Origin: Octopus vulgaris
Lineage: Eukaryota
Assembly: GCA_951406725.2 (NCBI GenBank)
Contig: OX597819.1
Span: 129,642,001-129,706,000, forward strand
Length of the DNA: 64,000 bases
Direction: 5' to 3'
Shown here in pieces: positions 12,508 through 54,193 of the stretch (the stretch's first letter is position 1; each line of letters starts with the position of its first letter). The notes below the pieces were generated by a model that searched no databases, was not told the DNA's origin, and saw only the letters and a program-made list of their open reading frames with translations. Made by a program: the position numbers and the translations under genes.

Positions 12508-12953
12508 AAGGCGGCGAGCTGGCAGAAACGTTAGCACGCCAGGCGAAATGAGTAGCCGTGTTTCGTCTGCCGTTACGTTCTGAGTTCAAATTCCGGGTTC
12601 AGTCCCACTGCGTGGCATCTTGGGCAAGTGTCTTCTGCTATAGCCCCGGGCCGACCAATGCTTTGTGAGTGGATTTGGTAGACGGAAACTGAAAGAAGCC
12701 TGTCGTATATATGTATATATATATATATGTGTGTGTTTGTGTGTCTGTGTTTGTCCCCCTAACATTGCTTGACAACCGATGCTGGCGTGTTTACGTCCCC
12801 GTCACTTAGCGGTTCGGCAAAAGAGACCGATAGAATAAGTACTGGGCTTACAAAGAATAAGTCCCGGGGTCGATTTGCTCGACTAAAGGCGGTGCTCCAG
12901 CATGGCCGCAGTCAAATGACTGAAACAAGTAAAAGAGTAAAAGAGTAAAGAGT
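12508..12953 (+). mobile_element. Chimeric SINE: family B head fused to family A body and tail
   Basis: ggcggcgagctggcagaaacg...gagttcaaattccg joined to ggttcagtcccactgcgtgg...gactgaaacaagtaaaagag; 12-bp TSD attccgagcgtt (12496-12507, 12954-12965). Confidence 0.85.
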
Positions 12954-18015: not shown

Positions 18016-18019
<4 letters not shown>

Positions 18020-18615
18020 GTACTTGTATATAATGTATGATGAATTTGTGGAATGATGTTCCATAAATTCCATCAATTTCGTTAAGAATGGAAGAAACAA
18101 ATTGTTAAAATTTATAAGAAGTTTAATTTTTGCAGACGATCGTTTCGTACAGAGGTATATTAATATGAATTCACGACTGAATTAAATTAAACAAATATCA
18201 ACGTACTCTTCAGTGCAGGAAGGAAAGAAACCATAATACAAAGAACTTAAAAAGGAAGAGAGCAGAAAAATTGGATCTAGCAGAGTCATATTTGTATCCC
18301 GTGAGAAAGAGATGGGAGTCATGTCGGATATTTAACCATAATGAGTTCGTATTATATCTGTGTACGAAACGATCGTCTGCAAGAATTAAACTTCTTATAA
18401 ATTCTAACAACTTGTTTCCTCCATTTTTAACTAATTTGATGGGATTTATGGAACTTCATTCCATAAATTCATCGTACTTTATATACAAGTACTACTTTCA
18501 TATCTTCGCAAATTTACACCTGTAAACTACCATCTAAGTATGAAGAATCAACTTTAAAAATCTTTTTTGGTAACCTCTAATTAAAAGACGAATCCACATT
18601 CAACCTTTATACACC
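18016..18615. mobile_element. (TA)n-embedded fold-back element with diverged arms
   Basis: Imperfect inverted arms about 18016-18160 / 18345-18495, extension to about 18615. Confidence 0.65.
18131..18217 (-). ncRNA. Candidate type-I hammerhead ribozyme with a long loop II
   Basis: - strand: tgca-CTGAAGA-gtac...gtac-GAAA-cgatcg-TC-tgca; canonical core and GUC site. Confidence 0.72.
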
Positions 18616-19194: not shown

Positions 19195-19246
19195 GTATGT
19201 ATGCATGCATGTATGTATGAATGTACTATGCATGCATGTATGTATG

Positions 19247-19280
<34 letters not shown>

Positions 19281-19524
19281 TGTATGTATGTATGTATGTA
19301 TGTATGTATGTATGTATGTATGCATGTATGCATGTATGCATGCATGTATGTATGTATGTACGTACGTACGTATGTATTAATGTATGCATGTATGTATGTA
19401 TGATTGTATGTATGAATGTATGTATGTATGAATGTATGTATGTATGTATGAATGTATGTATGTATGTATTTATTTATTTATGCATGTATGTATGTATGTA
19501 TGTATGTATGTATGTATGTATGTA

Positions 19525-19559
<35 letters not shown>

Positions 19560-19824
19560 ATGTATGTATTTATTTATGTATGTATGTATGTATTTATTTA
19601 TGTATGTATGTATGCATGTATGCATGTATGTATGTATGTATGTATGTATGTATGTATGTATTTATTTATGTATGTATGCATATATGTATGTACGTATGCA
19701 TGCATGTATGTATGCATGTGTGTATGTATGTATGTATGTACGTACGTACGTATGTATGTATGTATGCATGCATGCATGTATGCATGTATGTATGTATTTA
19801 TTTATGCATGTATGTATGTATATA

Positions 19825-19871
<47 letters not shown>

Positions 19872-19992
19872 ATGTGTGCATGTGTGTATGTGCGTATGTA
19901 TGTATATGTGTATGTATGTATGTGTGTATGTATGTATGTATGTATGCATGTATGTATGTATTTATTTATGCATGTATGTATGCATATATGTA

Positions 19993-20025
<33 letters not shown>

Positions 20026-20195
20026 ATGTATGCATGCATGTATGTATGTGCGTATGTATGTATATGTGTATGTATGTATGTATGTATGTATGCATGCATG
20101 TATGTATGTGCGTATGTATGTATATGTGTATGTATGTATGTATGTATGTATGTATGTATGTATGTATGTATGTATGTATGTATGTATGCATGCAT
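19195..20195. repeat. Compound (ATGT)n microsatellite, about 1 kb
   Basis: Directly visible; explains the 346, 324 and 261 aa MYVC ORFs. Confidence 0.95.
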
Positions 20196-20817: not shown

Positions 20818-22324
20818 AGCGTGTCACGTCCAGAATATATTAGTCCAGCTGGCTGGGCGTTGTATGAGAGGTCATCAAGAAGAACGTACTTTCTGAGGCA
20901 CAGATTGTCGATACGTAGGGTGTTCTCTTCATTTTCAGCTCTAGGTTTACATATATATATATATATATATATATTGCTGCTGTTGTTTAACAGGTGCTGT
21001 CTGAGAGATACTATACGACATTTGAAAAATATCTGTTCTGGCCTCAAGCCTCAACCTCCTTTATCTCTTCTTAGGTAGAGTTTTACGATATCACTGCTTC
21101 TGTGGAACTTTCCAGTTCATATCAGGATCTTGCGGATTTTAAGACGTACAGAGGCGAGTTCCTCTCCAAGTCAGTCAATTGACCACTCGTTTTGTCACAA
21201 ATATAAATCAGCTATTCACAATACACAGATTCGCCAATTTACACGTGTTTTATTTTAGTTCCTTCAACGGTCAAGACTGACAGCGTGTTCATACACGTAT
21301 GCGCAGGCTTGGGCAAGATTTTTTTTTTTAGGAAGAATGGCAATTATTCCTGTATATAACCTACTCTCTCTACGTCTTGATGTTTAACTAAGGGGGAAAA
21401 ATAAACTTCCGTTATGACGGCATAGCTTGGCACCAATGTTAGAATGCAAAGCGACGGAAGAGATGCCGTAAAGTATTGTGCTCGGAGTTCTTACAGTTTC
21501 TAGAATCCATTGGCCTGGATTGCATTTTCCTTTGTTTACCCTGAAAGGATGAAAGATAAATTTGACCTCGGCAGTATTCGAACTCAGAATGCGGTGAGTC
21601 GGAACAAGTATCACAAGGCATTCTACCCAACGCTCTAACGACTCGGCCAATCCGCCTACTTGTACACCTACATTACCAATTAAATATAGAGAGAGCAATT
21701 TTATGTTCAATACATGGTGTGCCACTTTCGCCTTCAATTGCTAATCTTCAACCATTAACATGGATAAGAAAATATCTCCGATTATTTTTTAACGCTTAGT
21801 TATGGATGGAAGGGCAGCCTCCATGGCCCTATTTTTTTTCTTTCAGGGCCTCCGGGACTGGTAGGATGAAGAGAAGCCATTATTTTCAGAGACCAGCCTC
21901 GAATTTTTGCGACTGAGTGAGCTCTGCCAGAGTCTTCCAAAGGCCATGTGGTGAGGTTAAACTGGGAGACGGATTAAGACTATCAAACAAGAACTGAAAA
22001 CGTAAAAACCTAGAACAAATGTTATCAGGTACCTCCGTCGGTGCTCTACCAATTTTTTTCAATCATCACTTTGGATTTGTACGAAGAGATGAAAGATAAA
22101 GGTGATTTCGGAGGGATTTCAACTCCGAACAATTTCAACTCAGAGCGCAAGATTCAGAACAAATAACACTCTAATGATTCAACCGATTCACAAGACTTGA
22201 GTAGCTAAGCTTATCTGATCTAACATGATAATTAGGAACATCAGAATACGGTTCGACACGAAATTATCAAACATAAAGCTAAAATAATTACCGAGGTAAG
22301 ACAGTGATACATAATCCCCCAAAT

Positions 22325-25300
22325 AAGGCGGCGAGCTGGCAGAAACGTTAGCACGCCGGGCGAAATGCTTAGCGGTATTTCGTTTGCCGCTACGTTCTGA
22401 GTTCAAATTCCGCCGAGGTCGACTTTGCCTTTCATCCTTTCGGGGTCGATTAAATAAGTACCAGTTACGCACTGGAGTCGATGTAATCGACTTAATCAGT
22501 TTATCTGTCCTTGTTTGTCTCCTCTGTGTTTAGCCCCTTGTGGGTAGTAAAGAAATAGGTATTTCGTCTGCCGTTACGTTCTGAGTTCAAATTCCGCCGA
22601 GGTCGACTTTGCCTTTCATCCTTTCGGGGTCGATTAAATAAGTACCAGTTACGCACTGGAGTCGATGTAATCGACTTAATCCGTTTGTCTGTCCTTGTTT
22701 GTCTCCTCTGTGTTTAGCCCCTTGTGGGTAGTAAAGAAATAGGTATTTCGTCTGCCGTTACGTTCTGAGTTCAAATTCCGCCGAGGTCAACTTTGCCTTT
22801 CATCCTTTCGGGGTCGATTAAATAAGTACCAGTTACGCACTGGAGTCGATGTAATCGACTTAATCAGTTTATCTGTCCTTGTTTGTCTCCTCTGTGTTTA
22901 GCCCCTTGTGGGTAGTAAAGAAATAGGTATTTCGTCTGCCGTTACGTTCTGAGTTCAAATTCCGCCGAGGTCGACTTTGCCTTACATCCTTTCGGGGTCG
23001 ATTAAATAAGTACCAGTTACGCACTGGAGTCGATGTAATCGACTTAATCCGTTTGTCTGTCCTTGTTTGTCTCCTCTGTGTTTAGCCCCTTGTGGGTAGT
23101 AAAGAAATAGGTATTTCGTCCGCCGTTACGTTCTGAGTTCAAATTCCGCCGAGGTCGACTTTGCCTTTCATCCTTTCGGGGTCGATTAAATAAGTACCAG
23201 TTACGTACTGGAGTCGATGTAATCGACTTAATCAGTTTATCTGTCCTTGTTTGTCTCCTCTGTGTTTAGCCCCTTGTGGGTAGTAAAGAAATAGGTATTT
23301 CGTCTGCCGTTACGTTCTGAGTTCAAATTCCGCCGAGGTCAACTTTGCCTTTCATCCTTTCGGGGTCGATTAAATAAGTACCAGTTACGCACTGGAGTCG
23401 ATGTAATCGACTTAATCAGTTTATCTGTCCTTGTTTGTCTCCTCTGTGTTTAGCCCCTTGTGGGTAGTAAAGAAATAGGTATTTCGTCTGCCGTTACGTT
23501 CTGAGTTCAAATTCCGCCGAGGTCGACTTTGCCTTTCATCCTTTCGGGGTCGATTAAATAAGTACCAGTTACGCACTGGAGTCGATGTAATCGACTTAAT
23601 CCGTTTGTCTGTCCTTGTTTGTCTCCTCTGTGTTTAGCCCCTTGTGGGTAGTAAAGAAATAGGTATTTCGTCCGCCGTTACGTTCTGAGTTCAAATTCCG
23701 CCGAGGTCGACTTTGCCTTTCATCCTTTCGGGGTCGATTAAATAAGTACCAGTTACGCACTGGAGTCGATGTAATCGACTTAATCCGTTTGTCTGTCCTT
23801 GTTTGTCTCCTCTGTGTTTAGCCCCTTGTGGGTAGTAAAGAAATAGGTATTTCGTCTGCCGTTACGTTCTGAGTTCAAATTCCGCCGAGGTCAACTTTGC
23901 CTTTCATCCTTTCGGGGTTGATTAAATAAGTACCAGTTACGCACTGGAGTCGATGTAATCGACTTAATCAGTTTATCTGTCCTTGTTTGTCTCCTCTGTG
24001 TTTAGCCCCTTGTGGGTAGTAAAGAAATAGGTATTTCGTCTGCCGTTACGTTCTGAGTTCAAATTCCGCCGAGGTCGACTTTGCCTTACATCCTTTCGGG
24101 GTCGATTAAATAAGTACCAGTTACGCACTGGAGTCGATGTAATCGACTTAATCCGTTTGTCTGTCCTTGTTTGTCTCCTCTGTGTTTAGCCCCTTGTGGG
24201 TAGTAAAGAAATAGGTATTTCGTCCGCCGTTACGTTCTGAGTTCAAATTCCGCCGAGGTCGACTTTGCCTTTCATCCTTTCGGGGTCGATTAAATAAGTA
24301 CCAGTTACGTACTGGAGTCGATGTAATCGACTTAATCAGTTTATCTGTCCTTGTTTGTCTCCTCTGTGTTTAGCCCCTTGTGGGTAGTAAAGAAATAGGT
24401 ATTTCGTCTGCCGTTACGTTCTGAGTTCAAATTCCGCCGAGGTCAACTTTGCCTTTCATCCTTTCGGGGTCGATTAAATAAGTACCAGTTACGCACTGGA
24501 GTCGATGTAATCGACTTAATCAGTTTATCTGTCCTTGTTTGTCTCCTCTGTGTTTAGCCCCTTGTGGGTAGTAAAGAAATAGGTATTTCGTCTGCCGTTA
24601 CGTTCTGAGTTCAAATTCCGCCGAGGTCGACTTTGCCTTTCATCCTTTCGGGGTCGATTAAATAAGTACCAGTTACGCACTGGAGTCGATGTAATCGACT
24701 TAATCCGTTTGTCTGTCCTTGTTTGTCTCCTCTGTGTTTAGCCCCTTGTGGGTAGTAAAGAAATAGGTATTTCGTCCGCCGTTACGTTCTGAGTTCAAAT
24801 TCCGCCGAGGTCGACTTTGCCTTTCATCCTTTCGGGGTCGATTAATTAAGTACCAGTTAGGCACTGGGGTCGATGTAATCGACTTAATCCGTTTGTCTGT
24901 CCTTGTTTGTCCCATCTGTGTTTAGCCCCTTGTGGGTAGTAAAGAAATAGGTATTTCGTCTGCCGTTACGTTCTGAGTTCAAATTCCGCCGAGGTCGACT
25001 TTGCCTTTCATCCTTTCGGGGTCGATTAATTAAGTACCAGTTACGCACTGGGGTCGATGTAATCGACTTAATCCGTTTGTCTGTCCTTGTTTGTCCCCTC
25101 TGTGTTTAGCCCCTTGTGGGTAGTAAAGAAATAGGTATTTCGTCTGCCGTTACGTTCTGAGTTCAAATTCCGCCGAGGTCGACTTTGCCTTTCATCCTTT
25201 CGGGGTCGATTAAATAAGTACCAGTTACGCACTGGGGTCGATGTAATCGACTTAATCAGTTTATCTGTCCTTGTTTGTCTCCTCTGTGTTTAGCCCCTTG

Positions 25301-25501
25301 TGGGTAGTAAAGAAATAGGTATTTCGTCTGCCGTTACGTTCTGAGTTCAAATTCCGCCGAGGTCGACTTTGCCTTTCATCCTTTCGGGGTCGATTAATTA
25401 AGTACCAGTTACGCACTGGGGTCGATGTAATCGACTTAATCCGTTTGTCTGTCCTTGTTTGTCCCGTCTGTGTTTAGCCCCTTGTGGGTAGTAAAGAAAT
25501 A
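22325..25501 (+). repeat. SINE family B-derived tandem array, 17 x 184 bp
   Basis: Units start at 22374 + n*184 (last at 25318); only the first carries the 5' head; flanked by atacataatcccc(c)aa on both sides. Confidence 0.95.
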
Positions 25502-27844
25502 TATACATAATCCCCAATGATCCAGTCCACCCAAATATGAATTAGGCATCATAATGAGAAAGTATTGCTTACAAATGTTACCGACAGAAACCACTGCCTA
25601 TATCACAGATGGCTGTTTCGTTAGCGTTCCGTAGCGAGTTCAAGTATGTTTTATAGTATATTCTTCCCCAGAGATCTTAAATAAACGGCATTTCCAAATG
25701 TTCCACCACTTCTCTGCATCTTCAAGCATTCACCGATTTATCCATCAAAGTAATTCATGTTCGGATCAATCGAGTATTCTTTTAATTTGCCCGAACGCTC
25801 AAAGGGACACTGGTCTCCTTTCCTATTCCTTTATTCATTTAATTGTTATGTCGAGGGTTTTTGTCGAATTCACCGATATCAGTTCCTTTTTAATTATTTT
25901 AATGACTCCAGGAAGGATAAAAGCAAAAGCCGACCGGTGATAGGAAATCAGACGGTAAAGAGATATAGATCTTTTATCCGAAAATCCAAACGATTCTCGA
26001 TTCCGCTAATCCACGTCAGTTTACATTTTTGTTTTACAAATGTTATTTCAGGATTTCCTTATTTCTTCAGTTTCGACATTCTCTTCCATTTCAATAAGAA
26101 GTAGTCAAAAACGTAAAGGAAGCGAACCAGCAGAATCGTTACAGCGTCGGATAGTATAATATGATTTACGCTATCTCTTCCGTTTTACTGCGGCTTGAGT
26201 TCAAACCTCAGTGGAGACAATTGAAGTTTACTGTGAGACAACACCCTATAATTCTCTCTCACTCATTCGATCTCTCTCAGCAATTACTACTAACAATGAA
26301 GAGAACCAAACTCCGCATGCTTTTGGATGTATCAACGTGCCCGTCGAGCCAAAGTATTGGATCTTTTCGCTTTGACCGGCAGATTTTTAAAATAATTTCT
26401 TTGTAACTAAAAAATTTTAAACTTCGTATACTGGTAGAATGTGTTTATAGAACATCTTTTTCTCTTGGCTTTCTTGAGAATATTCTGTAGTTTGTAAGAT
26501 ATTTGTTGGTTATTTTCTTGCATTTCGGCAATTTCAACCAATCAATGACGTCTGTTGAGGTGAAAACGATTTCTGCCGTAGTGTGTCAACAACATTTTCT
26601 GGCGATGTCATATGAAAATGTCCCCGTTATTTATGACATATTTCATATCAGTTCTATCCTATCAGGGTACCCCCCCCCCAAAAAAAAACCCCTAATCTTT
26701 TCAGTCAGTACTGGGAGCGATTGTTTATTCATTTGTTTCTTTCTGCCCGCCTTTCTCTCAAAAACAGAAGCAGAAATCGGCAAACCAGCTGTGATCAGAT
26801 CTGGAGAAGGAAAGACTTCCGTAAGGTTTAAATGTTGACTGCATATCCGTATTTAGCGGCGGTAACCCTAAAAACGCCGCCAGGAGTAGCGGGGACAAGA
26901 TACGTCCAAAACGCAAGAGAAATTAAACTAAACATCCAGTAGCTCCAAAATGTGTGTGTGTGTAATATAATATAATATACATGTATCTTTAATTTGTTTC
27001 AGTCACTGAACTGCGGCCATGCTGAAGAGTCTTAATTAAAAGGAATAGATCCCTGACTTATTTTTGATCCTCTTACTTATCCTATCAGGTGGTCCATTGC
27101 TGGGATTTAAGGATTTAAGCAACAACAGAAAAATTGTAATCTAAATTTTTAACCCCTTTCCCGCACTAAGCGAGTCCGCGCGCGCATGTGCGAATAGTGC
27201 TTATTCTATCGGTCTCTATGGCCGAATCGCTAAATTATGGGGACGTAACCACACCAACATCGGTTGTCAATCGGTGGGGGTGTGGACAAACACATAGATA
27301 TATACATGTATATATATGGCAGGGTTCTTTCAGTTTCCGTCTACTAAATCCACTTACAAAGTTTTGGCCAGCCCGAAGCTATAGCAGAAGACACTTGCCC
27401 AATGTGTTACGCCCTGGGACTGAACCCGAAGCAACGTGGTTGAGAAACAAGTTTCTTTTTCACACATTACACGCCTGTCGGTTGACATTCTTGTTTTAGT
27501 TTCTCACTTAAAGTCACAAAACAAATATATTATGGTCCGAATGGTATTCCTTAGTTTCTAATTGTGTCTTCAATATTCTGGCGTCATTTACGAGCAAATG
27601 ACACCGCGTGTTTCTCTTTAACTCGTTGCAATGTTTGTTTGAAAACACAACGAATCAGAGCGAAAGTGGGAGGCAATCCGAACAGTAGGACTCGTTGACA
27701 GCCATAAGGTTCTGTAGCTTTTTCTTTCATTCGTTTACGTGCAATAGTAACCACGCCACCTCTACCCCGCTCTATCTCGCACATCTCCTCTCCCTCTTCC
27801 TCGGTGTGTGTGTGTACGTGTGTAGGTGTATGCATGTATGTATT

Positions 27845-34684: not shown

Positions 34685-35380
34685 ACCATCTATCCATCTA
34701 TCTATCGATCGATATATCTATCTATTCTGGTTTAATATATAACCAAGGAGAAAAAAGATCCAAGGCGAGCCAAAACAAAAACCAAGCAACGATTAAAAAT
34801 AAAACAGAATGTCTCCAGTTTAGGCAGCAGATTGAGACCAACCTAGTCCTGTGGATGGGGAACAGGGTTCGTCGAAGACTGCCATAAAAATTACCGAATA
34901 CGGCAAACACTCGAAGAAGGTGAGAGAGTACAACGGCCGGAATATTATGACTGTAATGCTCAAGATAAGGTACTTTAGTCCCAATATAATATACAGTAGA
35001 TTCAACATAACAATATTGAGGGCTTTTTTGCTTCATTGCAAACCACACTGTTTGAATCCATAATTACACACACACACACACACACGAATCATCATCATCT
35101 ATGCGATGAGAATGGATACCAAGCTATATTCAGTTATTTTCCAGGAAAAGTGACAAAGTAATGCAAAAACAAAGATCAAAGAATCAAAGAAAGCGAAGAT
35201 CCAGCTTCGTAATCGGCGCTCATGATGGGAAGTACAGACGGATGTTCAGGAAGGGTTCTTGTGTCCAAGCCATATTACAATAATTAAGCAATGACCCGAT
35301 CTTATGACATGGCCTGGCCCCTGACAAAAATAGTCCTTGCTGTGGAGTTGACGAGAGTTTGATAAGGCAGTATGGAAAAG

Positions 35381-35610
35381 GTGGCGAGCTGGCAGAAACG
35401 TTAGCGCGCCAGTGCGAAATGATTAGCGGTATTTTGTCTGCCGCTACGTTCCGAGTTCAAATTCCGCCGAGGTCGACTTTGCCTTTCATCCTCTCGGGGG
35501 CGATTAAATAAGTACCAGTTACGCACTGGAGTCGATGTAATCGACTTAATCCGTTTGTCTGTCCTTGTTTGTCCCCTCTATGTTTAGCCCCTTGTGGGCA
35601 GTAAAGAAAC
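35381..35610 (+). mobile_element. SINE family B monomer
   Basis: Head plus exactly one array unit; B box gagttcaaattcc. Confidence 0.9.
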
Positions 35611-35874
35611 AAGTATGGAGCGGGGACATGAGAACAAGTACCTAAAATAAAAGGAATTCTTGATAGCATGTACATTCTTCAGGCGATGGTGGCATGTATT
35701 GAGTCTGTAATGTCTATTGGACTTAAGAAAAATAAGTGGTTTATGAATTGTAAGATAAGCAGAGAAAGTATAATAATAGACACAGCACAAGCACAAGAGG
35801 AAAAAACCAGGGCTTAAAAATTAAATCCTCAGTAAATGTCGGTCCCAAATTTTGGCACGATGCCAGCAATTTTA

Positions 35875-36635
35875 CTTACTCACTGACTCGCTCGCTCACT
35901 CACTCACTCACTCACTCACTCACTCACTCACTCACTCACTCACTCACTCGTCACTCAGCTACTCACTCACTCCCTCACTCATTCACCCACTCGTCACTCA
36001 GCTACTCACTCACTCAACTACTCACTCACTCACTCACTCATTCATTCACTCACTCGTCACTCAACTACTCAATCACTCACTCGTCACTCAGCTACTCACT
36101 CACTCAACTACTCACTCACTCAACTACTCACTCACTCAACTACTCACTCACTCAACTACTCACTCACTCGTCACTCAGCCTCTCACTCACTCAACTACTC
36201 ACTCACTCAACTATTCACTCACTCAACTACTCACTCACTCACTCATTCACTCACTCGTCACTCAGCTACTCACTCACTCAACTACTCACTCACTCACTCA
36301 CTCACTCAACTACTCACTCATTCTCTCACTCACTCACCTACTCACTCACTCAGCTACTCACTCACTCACTCACTCATTCACTCACTCGTCACTCAGCTAC
36401 TCACTCACTCAACTACTCACTCACTCACTCACTCACTCAACTACTCACTCATTCTCTCACTCACTCATTCACTCACTCGTCACTCAGCTACTCACTCACT
36501 CAACTACTCACTCACTCACTCACTCACTCAACTACTCACTCATTCTCTCACTCACTCACTCACTCACTCACTCACTCATCACTCACCTACTCATTCACTC
36601 ACTCACTCACTCACTCACTCACTCACTCACTCACC
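35875..36635. repeat. Compound (CACT)n microsatellite
   Basis: Directly visible; explains the 387 aa LTHS ORF. Confidence 0.95.
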
Positions 36636-40196: not shown

Positions 40197-40849
40197 AACA
40201 CACACACACACACTCACACACAAACGCAAACACGTACGCACACACATGTATATATATATTTAGCAAGGCTTGCCCAAAGTGCCACGTAGCGCAGTTGAAC
40301 TGAACCCGGAACCATGTGATTGTGAAGCAAACTTCTTACCACATAGACACGCCTATTTACTTATTTACTTTATTTACTTTATTCGAGGCTTAGTTATGAC
40401 AAGTCGGGGGTGGGGGAGGACGATGTTAGCATCTGACAAACGATCTACCCCAAATGCTTGCAGCATAGACTCTGCCAAAGGTATCCAAGATCCAGGTAAT
40501 TCCTGTGAAGTCTAAGACTCAGTAACCAGGAATTGTCACTCTGACCGACTTGCACATAGATTCCGTCAATCGAATTCCGTTAACGAGGCTTTGGTCGAAC
40601 AGGGGCCGTAGTAAAAGATATTTACTCAAAACTCTGTGCAGTGGGATCGAATTCAAAATCACGTAGTTATTTATTTAAAAGAACAAATTATTACAATTAT
40701 AATGAATATTTTGATTGACGACGATAAAATAGTTACATCAAGTTTTTAAATAATCCTTAAAAATTATTTCTATCGTATACGGAGCAAAAGTTTTAAACAT
40801 TTAAAATTTAAATTATAATTAAAAACTGGTTTCAAATTTTGGTATTCGG

Positions 40850-41230
40850 CCAATATTTCGGGGGAGGGGACGAGTCAATTACAACGACTCCAGTGCTCAA
40901 CTGCTACTTATTTTATCGACCTCGAAAGGTTGAAAGGTAAAGTCGACCTCAGCGGAATTTGAACTTAGAACATAGGGATTCTGCCAGCTCGTAGCCTTAA
41001 TTTATAATTTAATATTGCAGAGCGATTATATAATATTATTTCTTTATTACCCACAAGGGGATAAACATAGAGGGGACAAACAAGGACAGACGGACGGATC
41101 AAGTCGATAACATCGACCCCAGTGCGTAACTGGTACTTAATTTATCGACCCCGAAAGGATGAAAGGCAAAGTCGACCTCGGCGGAATTTGAACTTAGAAC
41201 ATAGGGATTCTGCCAGCTTGCAGCCTTAAT
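40850..41230 (-). mobile_element. Two tandem, internally deleted SINE family B copies
   Basis: Both contain gaaagg(t/c)aaagtcgacctc..cggaatttgaacttagaacatagggattctgccagct. Confidence 0.75.
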
Positions 41231-41761
41231 TTATAATTTAATATTGCAAAACGATTATAAAATATAAGTGTATGTGTGTGTGTGTTTGTGCAACGTGGAT
41301 TTGTAAAATACATTGCCCAGTAAGCAAAAGATGTATGGGTCGATTCTCGTCAGTGATTTCGCTATTTTTCGACCTCAAATTTTTTGTCTGGTGGTTTGAA
41401 CGTATGTGTGTATGTGTGTGCATAATTAAATTTTTATAATTTACACAAACTAGCTAGTTGGTTAGATAGATAGATAGAATTGCGCTCTGGGTTACTCAGT
41501 TTCTTGGTTACGTATTGTTTTGAACTGGATCTTAGCCTTACAACAATGCTAATATCTTGTTAGGGCGGCTTTATTAGAGGTAACTCCCACATGAATTTGT
41601 TTTAGTCTCAAGGGACTGCTGCCATTTCTGACACTAACATATGCATACACACTTCGGCTCCGAAAAGGGAGTATATTGCATTCTTTCAAATGACAATATG
41701 ATGGATATTAACATTAAATTAGAAACTCGATCTATGAAATCACTCATTCAATAATTCTCTT

Positions 41762-48606: not shown

Positions 48607-49120
<514 letters not shown>

Positions 49121-50412: not shown

Positions 50413-50528
50413 ATATACACACACACAAATATCTATGTACGTGTGTCTTTGTGTCTCTGTTTGACCCTCCCCACCAGCTTCCCTCCGTTTGACAACTGGT
50501 ATTGGTGTGTTTTCGTCCCCATAACTTA
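49735..50528 (+). mobile_element. SINE family A split by an expanded internal (TA)n and a nested element
   Basis: Head 49735-49890; body resumes near 50440 (tttgacaactggtattggtgtgttttcgtccccataactta). Confidence 0.7.
50264..50301 (-). ncRNA. Hammerhead-like motif with variant core CUGUUGA in TA-flanked element 50167-50358
   Basis: - strand tcttt-CTGTTGA-a-gagc(gtag)gctc-GAAA-cg-TA-aaaga. Confidence 0.5.
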
Positions 50529-50530
50529 AC

Positions 50531-50914
50531 GGGCCAACCAGGAGCCCATAGATGTTCAGATTAGACGAAGGAAATGGAGATGGATCGGACACACACTGCG
50601 GAAAGAACCCTCGAATGTGACACGACAAGCACTTGACTGGAACCCGCAGGGGGAAAGGGAGCGAGGACGCCCGAAGCAGACATAGAAGGGGAGCATTTTG
50701 GACGAGCTCAGGACCACCGGCCTGACATGGGAAACAGCCAAGAAACACGCCAATGACCGCCAAAAGTGGAAAACAACTGTTGAGACCCTATGCTCCACAA
50801 GGGGCAAAAAAGATTAAGAAGAATTTGATTATTTGAGGGAAATTTTGGCTGTTAGTTCTAGTAGGATAATCGACGGCACAGAGACTCGATAATTGGCTGT
50901 CGTGGCATTGTATA
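50531..50914 (+). repeat. Inverted duplicate of the RTE 3' end plus flank (copy of 51633-52021)
   Basis: Reverse-complement match including about 90 bp beyond the (AAG)n tail. Confidence 0.9.
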
Positions 50915-51222
50915 TGTATTTTCCAATTAAGTTGTTGCTGTTTTACCTCAGTTCGGCAAAGCGACCGATGAAATAAGTACCTGGTTTAGAAAAAATAAGT
51001 AAGTCCTGGAATCGATTCATTCGACTAAAAATTCAAAGCGGTGCCCCTGAAACAAGTAAGAGATAAAAAGAGATATACAGTTCGAGATATATAAAACGAG
51101 TTGATCATAGCTGGAACATGTTTGAATGTAGGTTTGCTTTAGGAAAGCTGTTCTTGCCGTTAAGGAAGAGGACACGGCTGGACTGAGGTAGAACAGCAAC
51201 AACTTAATTGAAAAATAATTCA

Positions 51223-51632
51223 GGGCGCAGGAGTGGCTGTGTGGTAAGTAGCTTGCTAACCGACCACATGGTTCAGGGTTCAGTTCCACTGCGTGGCACC
51301 TTCGGCAAGTGTCTTCTACTATAGCCCCGGGCCGACCAATGCCTTGTGAGTGGATTTGGTAGAAGGAAACTGAAAGAAGCCTGTCGTATATATGTATATA
51401 TATGTGTGTGTATGTGTGTTTGTTTGTGTGTCTGTGTTTGTCCCTCTAGCATTGCTTGACAACCGATGATGGTGTGTTTATGTCCCCGCCACTTAGCGGT
51501 TCGGCAAAAGAGACCGATAGAATAAGTACTGGGCTTACAAAGAATAAGTCCTTGGGTCTAGTTGCTCGACTAAAGGCGGTGCTCCAGCATTGCCGCAGTC
51601 AAATGACTGAAACAAGTAAAAGAGTAAAAGAG
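51223..51632 (+). mobile_element. SINE family A, full length
   Basis: Head, internal TA/TG run, tail aaaagagtaaaagag. Confidence 0.9.
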
Positions 51633-51723
51633 TATACAATGCCACGACAGCCAATTATCGAGTCTCTGTGCCGTCGATTATCCTACTAGAACTAACAGCC
51701 AAAATTTCCCTCAAATAATCAAA

Positions 51724-53088
51724 TTCTTCTTCTTCTTAATCCTTTTTCCCCTTGTGGAGCATAGGGTCTCAACAGTTGTTTTCCACTTTTTGCGGTCATT
51801 GGCGTGTTTCTTGGCTGTTTCCCATGTCAGGCCGGTGGTCCTGAGCTCGTCCAAAATGCTCCCCTTCTATGTCTGCTTCGGGCGTCCTCGCTCCCTTTTC
51901 CCCTGCGGGTTCCAGTCAAGTGCTTGTCGTGTCATATTTGAGGGTTCTTTCCGCAGTGTGTGTCCGATCCATCTCCATTTCCTTCGTCTAATCTGAACAT
52001 GTATGGGCTCCTGGTTGGCCCTTTCCCACAGGTCGGTGTTTGGCACTTCTGTCGAACCACTTCAGATGGGGGATCTGCTGGAGACATTTATTGATGAAGG
52101 TCTGGATCTTCTTGTAGTTGCTGCAGGTGACTCTCCATGTTTCAGAGTCATACAAAAGCACAGGTTTTACGTTTGAACTAAATAAGCGAAGTTTAGTTTG
52201 AGTTGAGATGGCAGTGGACTTCCATACCGGCCGAAGAATAGCGAAGGCTTGCCAAGCCTTCTTGCTTCTTGCTGTGATGTCCTCGTCTGATTCACCTGAT
52301 TTGCTGATCTTGCTACCAAGATAGACAAACTCACTAACGTCCTCCACAGGTTCCCCCTCGATTGTGATTGGCTCTTCCTGCTTGTTGATACGCAGCACTT
52401 TTGTGTTTTCCCGGCTGATCCTCAAGCCCACTCGCTGTGAAGTTTCTGTCAGGTGGTCTACCTTATCTTGCATGTCTTGCAGGCGATGTGAGAGTAGCGC
52501 GAGATCATCTGCGTAGTCCAAATCTATCAGCTTCTTCATCAGTGTCCACTGAATACCTTTCCCGGAGGTAGCGTAGGCCGTCCTGGCGACCCAGTCCAGC
52601 ACGACGAGGAACAAGAGCGGTGACAACAAACAGCCCTATCTGACTCCTGTGCTGACCCTGAATTCCTCCGACAATCTCCCAGCATGGATGACCTCGCAAG
52701 AAAACTCCTCGTAGAGTAAATCGAATAATGCCCACGTTCTTCTCTGGCACACCATAGTGTCGTAAGATGTCCCAGATTGTCTGCCTGTCTACGCTGTCAA
52801 ATGCTTTTTCGAAGCTGATGAAGCACACACAGTGACGCTTGCCATTCCATTGTCTGCTCCACAATGACTCTGAGTATCACAATCTTTTCCGTGCATGATC
52901 TCTCTTTTCGAAAACCTGTCCACTCCTGTCACCTTTCCGTTCTTTAAGCTCTTCATGGCTTTGCGGATTTCTGGCTTGGTGATTTCTCCAATGTGGATAT
53001 TGAGCGGGATCCATGGGCCCAATTCTGGCGGCTCTTGAGGTGGAGGGCGGTTAAGTGTTTCTTGGAAATGTTCCTTCCATCTCGCCGA
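51724..53088 (-). mobile_element. RTE-clade LINE, 5'-truncated and frameshifted reverse transcriptase
   Basis: RT motifs FEKAFDSVDR, GCLLSPLLF, LDYADDLALL, FVYLGSKI; RTE-type C-terminus [14 protein letters not shown]...WNPQG...GRPK; (AAG)n tail. Confidence 0.9.
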
Positions 53089-53738
53089 GGAATCGATCCA
53101 TTTGACTAAAAATTCAAGGTGGTGCTCCTGAAAAGCTAAAGGACAAGGACGGTTGCTAACTTCCATTGAGGAAATAATCAAATTACTGTCTTACAAACAG
53201 AAGTACACACTGGGAAAGAAAAAAAAATCAATGGTCACAGTTGGAATGAATTCAATGATAGGTTTAAGAGTTCAGCTAAGAGTTGAGTAAACAATAGTAG
53301 ATCAATAAAACACACACACACACACACACACACGTATTGTACAGAGACAGCTAAGGTGCTTCTTCGGAGTTGGATGACATACTAAAAAGACAGCCAAATC
53401 TTCATAAAGCATTTTTCATATTGCCGTGCTTAGGAAAAAAGAACACGTTAGACAATGTAGATAATTTAGTCGTTTATTGGCGTCTTTCGCTGGACAGTGG
53501 GACACAGTCTTTAAGGATCTTGGCGAATATTGGTTGATCATATCAGCCCAAGAATTCATTCCAGTCTAGTCCTTATTTTATCAATTTTCTATTTGTCAAA
53601 CAGCAAGATTATCGGATATAAAGGGAGATGTTACAAACACAAAATTCCCCAATTCCTCTCCTCATATTTCTTCGCATTAAATCACTGAATACATAAACAT
53701 TCATATACATATGCACACATATACAGATCTGTGTGTGT

Positions 53739-53796
<58 letters not shown>

Positions 53797-53805
53797 CGAT
53801 ATATA

Positions 53806-54036
53806 AGGCGGCGAACTGGCAGAAACGTTAGCACGTCGGGCGAAATGCGTAGCCGTATTTCGTCTGCCGTTACGTTCTGGGTTCAAATTCCGCCGAGGTC
53901 GATTTTACCTTTCATCCTTTCGGGGTCGATAAATTAAGTACCAGTTACGCACTGGGGTCGATGTAATTGACTTAATCCGTTTGTCTGTCCTTGTCTGCCT
54001 CCTCTATGTTTAGCCCCTTGTGGGTAATAAAGAAAC
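53806..54036 (+). mobile_element. SINE family B monomer
   Basis: Head plus one unit; flanked by a gatatataagg duplication. Confidence 0.9.
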
Positions 54037-54193
54037 AGATATATAAGGGTACAATACAGGGATTCAAGCGTAGGTCTTTGTAAGCTTCAAGAAGTCCGTG
54101 GAAAGAATAGAAAGCAAAAAGTGGAGAGTGTACGGTAACATAGAACAACAATTTATTGGCATCGGAAGTTAGATACCGTTCCACTCTCTCAAC

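What the first reader, a model, noticed from the sequence alone, without database searches (positions are those of the whole stretch)
22307..25517. One SINE insertion expanded into a 17 x 184-bp satellite inside a single TSD
Seen: a complete family B head (22325-22373) is followed by 17 exact-length 184-bp units, each retaining the B box (gagttcaaattcc) but not the A-box head. The 3.2-kb block is bracketed by atacataatcccc(c)aa (22307-22322, 25503-25517). Monomeric copies exist at 35381 and 53806. Inference: birth of a satellite from a SINE, seeded either by reiterative template jumping during reverse transcription or by a later duplication; it also creates a regular array of potential TFIIIC sites at near-nucleosome spacing.
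Basis: partly seen in the sequence, partly recalled or inferred. Interest (0 to 1): 0.7.

Follow-up and report, generated by a model that had tools for sequence, protein, structure and literature searches.

The report
Octopus SINE grown into 184-bp satellite
A short jumping-DNA element (SINE), likely from an octopus, lies here as one full copy plus 16 headless 184-base copies inside a single insertion scar; it likely arrived as a short chain of at least two copies and likely grew later by DNA block duplication, a tidy new example of a known route from jumping DNA to satellite DNA.

Summary
Observation confirmed: a 49-bp SINE head plus 17 gap-free 184-bp units (22374-25501) between one 13-bp exact target-site duplication; 16 of 16 junctions are identical and hold no spacer. 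The family matches Octopus bimaculoides sequence. The units are not one reverse-transcription product: their variants form a higher-order repeat, and the last step was a 6-unit (1104-bp) duplication with 1 mismatch in 1172 bp. The 5' and 3' ends carry different alleles that also occur in dispersed monomers (4 of 14 variable columns; about 1-3% expected from one founder), which hints at two or more founding copies. The junction lies in the loop of the head hairpin, beside the only hexamer complementary to the tail end. Best reading: a short multimer inserted once, then expanded by unequal exchange. The architecture is published (squamate SINE-derived satellites; blood clam TSD-(SINE)n-TSD arrays), so it is a new member of a known kind; I found no cephalopod report in 10 searches. 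Junction recurrence elsewhere in the genome could not be tested. The TFIIIC/nucleosome idea has no support here.

The parts
22307..22319 (+). Left copy of the target-site duplication (13 bp exact; continues imperfectly to about 22324)
22325..22373 (+). SINE head, present once; A-box-like 8-mer starts at 22337
22357..22386 (+). Predicted head hairpin: stem 22357-22367 with 22376-22386, family-consensus loop 22368-22375; the unit start 22374 lies in or at the 3' edge of this loop
   Evidence: 97.4% of 77 cells paired; no covariation above shuffles
22374..25501 (+). Array of 17 x 184-bp units (SINE nt 50-233), no indels, mean pairwise difference 2.2%, no run of 4 T
22552..22565 (+). First of 16 identical tail-to-unit junctions; the last 6 nt of the tail are the reverse complement of unit nt 3-8; no spacer, no direct microhomology
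22399..22411 (+). First B-box-like motif, repeated every 184 bp to 25343 (17 of 17 units)
22570..24845 (+). Higher-order repeat: 22570-23741 matches 23674-24845 (offset 6 units, 1104 bp) with 1 mismatch, a CpG transition at 23919
24766..25501 (+). Units 14-17: second haplotype group (unit columns 81T, 103G, 147C; unit 16 is a mosaic)
25503..25515 (+). Right copy of the target-site duplication
25649..25652 (+). First run of 4 T after the array (possible Pol III stop for a read-through transcript)
35377..35611 (+). Dispersed monomer of the same family, own 8-bp TSD (35369-35376, 35612-35619); shares 17C, 81A, 103A with unit 1
53805..54037 (+). Dispersed monomer, own 11-bp TSD (53798-53808, 54038-54048); shares 17T, 81T, 103G with unit 17

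Best explanation
This is a SINE-derived tandem array (one head, 17 units, one target-site duplication) that likely inserted once as a short tail-to-head chain of at least two different family copies and likely grew to 17 units by DNA-level unequal exchange, most recently by duplicating six units. Shown by the sequence: the anatomy, the single junction, the 6-unit duplication, and two haplotype groups at the two ends. Inferred: the junction was first made when the partner LINE reverse transcriptase finished a SINE RNA whose 5' end lay at nt 50, in the loop of the head hairpin, and jumped to the tail end of another SINE RNA; pairing of the tail with unit nt 3-8 would hold the two ends together. 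That jump may have happened at this site or at a source locus whose read-through Pol III transcript was then copied here. After insertion the 184-bp homology allowed out-of-register exchange; new mutations were copied in 2-, 3- and 6-unit steps. The array is most likely neutral; no host function is indicated.
For: One TSD around the whole block and none at 16 of 16 junctions. Higher-order repeat: 1 mismatch in 1172 bp at a 6-unit offset; a run of 6 unit pairs with at most 1 difference at one lag arises in 17 of 100000 shuffles; 7 column pairs show all four gametes, which needs exchange or repeat mutation. Founders: 4 of 14 variable columns, all non-CpG, have both alleles in the 3 young monomers; one founder plus mutation gives this in 383-1568 of 50000 trials across 12 settings; unit 1 has the 35377 monomer's alleles, unit 17 the 53805 monomer's, units 2-13 the crossover type. 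Junction: no direct microhomology; only 5 of 200 possible starts make a 6-bp stem with the tail; 4 of 160 starts give end-pairing probability of 0.5 or more and nt 50 is one, rank 5 of 160. An R2 reverse transcriptase jumps only from a template's 5' end and crossed at least 10 templates in vitro (bioRxiv 10.1101/2021.04.30.442027, passages). TE dimers expand by unequal exchange (PMC5932611, passages).
Against: The founder test was chosen after seeing the data, rests on 3 monomers, and column overlap alone is not significant (P=0.12). Units 1 and 17 differ at only 8 of 184 sites, less than any unit-monomer or monomer-monomer comparison made (9-18), and all 17 units share an allele at column 153 absent from the 3 monomers, which fits one founder too. 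The hairpin has no covariation support (461 of 500 shuffles pair as well). End pairing fails for the 53805 monomer (nt 50 ranks 22 of 160). Loop position and tail complementarity are one coincidence, not two, since the tail resembles the hairpin's 5' arm. No second locus with this junction was found: 0 others in the window, none in the 8 protein hits read (7 of 19, plus 1), searches with little power. The nearest T4 lies 147-456 nt past the three elements, so free RNA ends at the tail are assumed, not shown.
Confidence: 0.5

Rival explanations
1. Double insertion with a hidden TSD: a full-length copy inserted first, then a second, 5'-truncated copy primed inside its tail, so the second duplication is the tail itself; the dimer then expanded by unequal exchange.
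For: Explains two founders and the end-to-end polarity equally well. Tail-to-internal tandems of non-LTR elements are attributed to consecutive insertions (PMC5932611); the squamate paper also names insertion into the same locus. A second chimeric tail-to-head pair of this family exists at 40.8-41.3 kb.
Against: No flank-derived base at 16 of 16 junctions: the second nick must fall exactly at the tail end. It does not explain why the break sits beside the tail-complementary hexamer (5 of 200 starts).
Confidence: 0.2
2. One monomer inserted; a local DNA repair or slippage event at the hairpin duplicated nt 50-233 (possibly via the 5-bp direct repeat shared by head nt 38-42 and the tail, with loss of the loop), and all variation is later mutation plus conversion from dispersed copies.
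For: Units are closer to each other (at most 10 of 184) than most are to monomers, and share column 153 against 3 of 3 monomers. A 5-mer direct repeat exists at nt 38 and 228. 8 differences would need about 6 My on a rough rate, which is not absurd.
Against: Four non-CpG columns hit the same alleles as monomers, 0.8-3% under one founder, and they sort to the two ends. No direct microhomology at the actual junction.
Confidence: 0.2
3. All 17 units were written in one reverse-transcription run (serial template jumping or rolling circle on a 184-nt RNA circle).
For: Identical junctions; the 184-nt unit is predicted to fold with its two ends paired (probabilities 0.59-0.84); serial jumps are possible in vitro.
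Against: Private variants recur in register at 6-unit offset over 1172 bp, which neither random templates nor one circle would give; 0 of 16 adjacent pairs are identical (though 36% of shuffles also give 0). At most 11 units can predate the last duplication.
Confidence: 0.03
4. The copy number is an assembly artefact: the 6-unit block is a false duplication or two haplotypes joined in tandem.
For: A near-perfect 1.1-kb duplication with a single difference is what a haplotype join could look like.
Against: The window has 0 N in 64000 bases and runs through a 1-kb microsatellite, as long-read assemblies do; 0 indels in 3128 bp; the one difference is a CpG transition. The remaining 11 units are distinct and cannot be an artefact.
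Confidence: 0.07

Closest known systems
SINE-derived satellites (sSat1-3) of squamates, Vassetzky et al. 2023, PMC10702118 (read parts 1-4 of 5)
   Same: Unit shorter than the parent SINE, a longer leading unit reaching the SINE terminus, units that keep the 3' part of the head with box B, alternating di- and trimeric subvariants; sSat3Ati2 (179 nt: end of head, body, LINE-derived region) has nearly this layout.
   Different: Mollusc, not reptile. Here both SINE ends and a TSD are intact; that paper's main text never mentions TSDs, templates, hairpins or reverse transcription (0 hits) and proposes unequal recombination. Number of loci and chromosomal position are unknown here.
TSD-(SINE)n-TSD arrays of the blood clam Scapharca broughtonii, Martelossi et al. 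2024, PMC11481361 (section 15 and passages)
   Same: Mollusc tRNA-type SINE; 4-15 units inside one TSD; first element with a full head, later ones with the same head truncation.
   Different: There the leading and middle units usually have truncated tails (a plain internal duplication); here every unit keeps the complete tail, so the junction is a true tail-end-to-internal join. 17 units, with a resolved higher-order repeat.
Tandem dimers from double insertion, McGurk and Barbash 2018, PMC5932611 (passages)
   Same: Intact 3' end joined to a 5'-truncated neighbour, then growth by unequal exchange into higher-order repeats.
   Different: Their hallmark, a TSD copy inside the junction, is absent at 16 of 16 junctions unless it is hidden in the tail.
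PcH-Sat of the limpet Patella, PMC11121367 (parts 2-3 of 6)
   Same: Mollusc satellite of about 180 bp derived from the 3' part of a Nin-SINE. The body of the present family resembles the Nin/Deu domain (recalled; no call confirmed it).
   Different: PcH-Sat is a mature pericentromeric satellite (up to about 10% of the genome) lacking both boxes; this is a 3.2-kb single-site array that still has its head and TSD.
Octopus tRNA-derived SINEs OK, OR1, OR2 (Ohshima and Okada 1994; seen only as a reference entry and in citing passages)
   Same: Family matches an O. bimaculoides predicted protein at 96% over about 24 residues of antisense translation.

Membership tests
tRNA-type SINE | Short non-coding dispersed repeat with own TSDs | tested here: met
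   233 bp; 2 of 2 full-length monomers in the window have TSDs; longest ORF over the element is 68 aa on + and 113 aa on -
tRNA-type SINE | A and B boxes in a tRNA-related head | tested here: inconclusive
   Loose A box at 22337 and a B box lacking C61 (consensus recalled); ARAGORN finds 0 tRNAs; no Rfam tRNA match at E up to 10
tRNA-type SINE | Pol III transcription and LINE-derived tail | not testable with these tools
   No expression data; partner LINE not identified (only a broken RT fragment at 52-53 kb)
SINE-derived satellite (sSat) | At least four middle monomers | tested here: met
   15 middle units
SINE-derived satellite (sSat) | Unit shorter than the SINE, with a longer terminal unit reaching a SINE end | tested here: met
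   184 versus 233 bp; leading unit has the full head
SINE-derived satellite (sSat) | High homogeneity, often alternating subvariants | tested here: met
   97.8% mean identity; 3- and 6-unit periodicity
SINE-derived satellite (sSat) | Same unit at many loci; subtelomeric bias | not testable with these tools
   No host genome available; 0 other junctions in 64 kb
TSD-(SINE)n-TSD array (blood clam type) | One TSD around the array, full head only on the first unit | tested here: met
TSD-(SINE)n-TSD array (blood clam type) | Leading and middle units truncated at the 3' tail (stated as usual, not required) | tested here: not met
   All 17 tails end where the monomers end
Double-insertion tandem | TSD copy inside the junction | tested here: not met
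   0 of 16 junctions carry flank sequence; a TSD made of tail sequence would be invisible
Retrozyme or ribozyme-processed tandem retroelement | Self-cleaving ribozyme in the unit | tested here: not met
   No ribozyme family among 2 weak Rfam matches at E up to 10 over 22200-22800
Nin/Deu-domain SINE superfamily | Central domain homologous to Nin/Deu | not testable with these tools
   Resemblance recalled; 0 motif hits in the one readable supplement file; SINEBase supplements unreadable

The most novel reading that the evidence does not exclude
Octopus SINE RNA is cut in the loop of its head hairpin; the 3' piece closes on itself because its tail pairs with the freed arm, and the LINE reverse transcriptase jumps onto such pieces (or runs round a ligated 184-nt circle) to write head-plus-multimer inserts with one fixed junction. 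The terminator-free arrays are then transcribed and moved whole. RNA structure would thus programme where and how a satellite family is born, genome-wide, and fix its unit length.
Probability: 0.17. Interest if true: 0.72.

Novelty: new member of a known kind. Interest (0 to 1): 0.38.

Why it matters
How dispersed elements turn into tandem arrays is still argued mostly from old arrays whose ends are lost. This one keeps its head, its tail, its TSD and a readable duplication history, so the seeding step can be tested: orthologous alleles give the starting copy number, and a genome-wide junction census separates template jumping, mobile multimers, double insertion and local duplication. If the junction is fixed by RNA structure and recurs, it would be a mechanism for satellite birth that the squamate and bivalve papers do not propose. 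If not, it is one more SINE-derived array, useful mainly as a length-polymorphic marker and a note for cephalopod repeat annotation.

Tried and rejected
Looking for the junction elsewhere: no other copy in the window (the 17th match is a monomer tail plus flank); 0 matches for two body motifs in bacterial and archaeal genomes, tried in the hope of host contamination; junction-spanning ORF searches found no candidate, one O. bimaculoides protein with a monomeric copy and nothing at E up to 1; the HMMER search gave 19 hits, none aligning past query residue 60 of 69, of which 7 were read and none held the junction, 12 were not read. These are weak negatives. The organisms behind those unnamed hits stayed unknown. 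No host genome, reads, metagenome or viral contigs could be searched. Ribozyme or known RNA family: none. Back-splicing: rejected, the unit starts one base after the position an AG acceptor in the head would give (sequence). Covariation proof of the hairpin: not obtained. Greedy collapse of the array below 11 units is ambiguous and is not used as a history. Host gene context: of 150 of 166 non-simple ORFs scanned, only one RT fragment and one spurious low-complexity match hit Pfam, so intron versus intergenic is unknown. TFIIIC array at nucleosome spacing: no test possible; the period follows from the junction. Literature: 10 searches showed no report of octopus SINE arrays; most subscription papers, bioRxiv supplements, the SINEBase supplements and one MetaSINE supplement file were not visible, and the octopus repeat library itself (one search shows only summary tables) may already list this unit among its 80 satellite families.

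Full report
Observation. The window is an AT-rich, microsatellite-laden animal sequence with no N. At 22325 a 233-bp element begins; its last 184 bp (nt 50-233) are repeated 17 times without a gap to 25501. The block lies between two exact copies of a 13-mer (22307-22319, 25503-25515), the only 2 matches in the window; 11 of 20000 random non-simple 40-bp pairs share a 13-mer. All 16 junctions are identical and contain no spacer. Two full monomers, at 35377 and 53805, have their own TSDs, and BLAST finds 10 further partial or older relatives. An antisense translation matches an Octopus bimaculoides predicted protein that has captured a monomeric copy, so the host is likely an octopus; the species is not determined.

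History written in the units. Fourteen of 184 columns vary. Identical pairs are units 2/7/13, 3/6/12, 4/10 and 5/11; no neighbours are identical. At an offset of six units, 22570-23741 matches 23674-24845 with one mismatch, a CpG transition. A run of 6 unit pairs with at most 1 difference at one lag arose in 17 of 100000 shuffles of unit order, and 4 identical pairs in 27 of 100000; the mean-distance statistic is weaker once the choice of lag is allowed for (6744 of 100000). So the last step took the array from 11 to 17 units at the DNA level. On the calibration quoted in PMC13282606 (distance 0.09 = 25 My; part 1 of 3 read) this is roughly 0.12 My old (0.003-0.66), a rough figure. Seven column pairs show four gametes, as expected from repeated exchange. 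Collapsing further is ambiguous and I draw no history from it.

How many founders. Unit 1 carries 17C, 81A, 103A like the monomer at 35377; unit 17 carries 17T, 81T, 103G like the monomer at 53805; units 2-13 carry 17T with 81A and 103A, the type that one out-of-register crossover in a two-copy seed would give. Four of 14 variable columns have both alleles among the 3 young monomers, all four non-CpG. One founder plus mutation reproduces this in 383-1568 of 50000 trials over 12 settings. Against: the test is post hoc, column overlap alone has P=0.12, units 1 and 17 differ by 8 of 184, fewer than the 9-18 seen in the unit-monomer and monomer-monomer comparisons, and all units share one allele absent from the 3 monomers. 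Two or more closely related founders is the better reading, not a proven one; conversion from dispersed copies could mimic it.

The junction. There is no direct microhomology at nt 50. The head is predicted to fold into a long hairpin; in the first element the loop is nt 46-49 and the unit starts at the next base, and in the 7-sequence consensus the loop is 22368-22375 and the start lies inside it. The stem is paired in 97.4% of 77 cells against 38-53% for slid controls, but shows no covariation beyond shuffles. The last 6 nt of the tail are the reverse complement of unit nt 3-8, the only such site in the element; 5 of 200 possible starts give this stem. The 184-nt unit alone is predicted to fold with its ends paired (0.59-0.84); nt 50 ranks 5 of 160 starts for end closure in the first element, similar positions score in the 35377 monomer, but not in the 53805 monomer. 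Loop position and tail pairing are linked, so they count as one coincidence of a few percent. An R2 reverse transcriptase jumps only on reaching a template's 5' end and can cross at least 10 templates in vitro (bioRxiv 10.1101/2021.04.30.442027, passages); if that holds for the unknown partner LINE, a jump here implies an RNA cut in the loop. Cleavage of SINE RNAs is reported for mouse B2 (search listing and abstract starts only). No ribozyme was found.

Mechanism. I commit to: one insertion delivered a head-plus-multimer of at least two copies, joined by an end-to-end reverse-transcriptase jump at the loop (here or at a source locus), and unequal exchange then expanded it (0.5). Rivals: second insertion with a TSD hidden in the tail (0.2), local duplication of one copy (0.2), false duplication of the six-unit block (0.07), all 17 units in one run (0.03). 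Shared versus random unit order among such loci would. All my attempts to find the junction elsewhere were negative but weak.

Chromatin idea. The B-box-like motif is in 17 of 17 units but lacks the consensus C61 (consensus recalled). The 184-bp period is the element length minus the head. The squamate paper notes that many satellites have 150-180 bp units, but nothing here tests TFIIIC binding or nucleosome phasing.

Comparison and novelty. Squamate sSats share the layout, including B-box-retaining units and alternating subvariants (PMC10702118, parts 1-4 of 5). Blood clam has 4-15 unit arrays inside one TSD with head-truncated later units (PMC11481361, section 15), though usually with truncated tails. 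A limpet satellite of 179 bp derives from a Nin-SINE (PMC11121367, parts 2-3 of 6). Dimer-then-expansion is the model of PMC5932611 (passages). I also saw passages of PMC4824008, PMC5804259, PMC4758252 and PMC3531059 for family naming; the names OK and Nin/Deu for this family are recalled and unconfirmed. Ten literature searches showed no octopus case, with the gaps listed under Tried and rejected. Verdict: real, a new member of a known kind; interest 0.38. The structured junction is the part worth following: probability 0.17 that it marks a general RNA-programmed route, interest 0.72 if so.

Noticed in passing
window 40820-41265, minus strand: Two family members tail-to-head that share about 32 bp of 5' flank and the same private head deletion; the first has the young tail, the second an older-family tail. 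Looks like a young copy inserted with a long duplication of flank and head of a resident copy.
   Followed up: partly
window 12508-12700: Head of this family joined at the B box to the body of a different, abundant SINE family (CORE-like by recall): a chimeric SINE.
   Followed up: no
window 50528-53190: Broken LINE reverse-transcriptase fragment on the minus strand (Pfam RVT_1 4e-9, DUF6451 2e-16); 50528-50914 and 51633-52024 form a 392-bp inverted pair at 96%.
   Followed up: no
each unit, e.g. 22490-22536: A branch-point-like hexamer, long pyrimidine tract and TTTAG form a 3' splice-site-like motif on the + strand (sequence); predicted proteins P0003 and P0020 include the family in antisense, so it may be exonised or mis-predicted often.
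   Followed up: no
each tail, first at 22545: Loose A-box-like 8-mer 40 nt before the next unit's B box, closer to tRNA spacing than the head's 64 nt; could give internal units a cryptic promoter, but 1771 of 20000 shuffles also match.
   Followed up: partly
unit columns 125 and 130 (first at 22498 and 22503): Two substitutions 5 bp apart are perfectly linked in 8 of 17 units and absent from the 3 young monomers: one multi-base event or a third founder.
   Followed up: partly
window 19195-20192, 35874-36634, 48607-49120: Very long degenerate tetranucleotide microsatellites (up to about 1 kb); also nested inverted pairs at 1125-2112 and 18016-18496.
   Followed up: no
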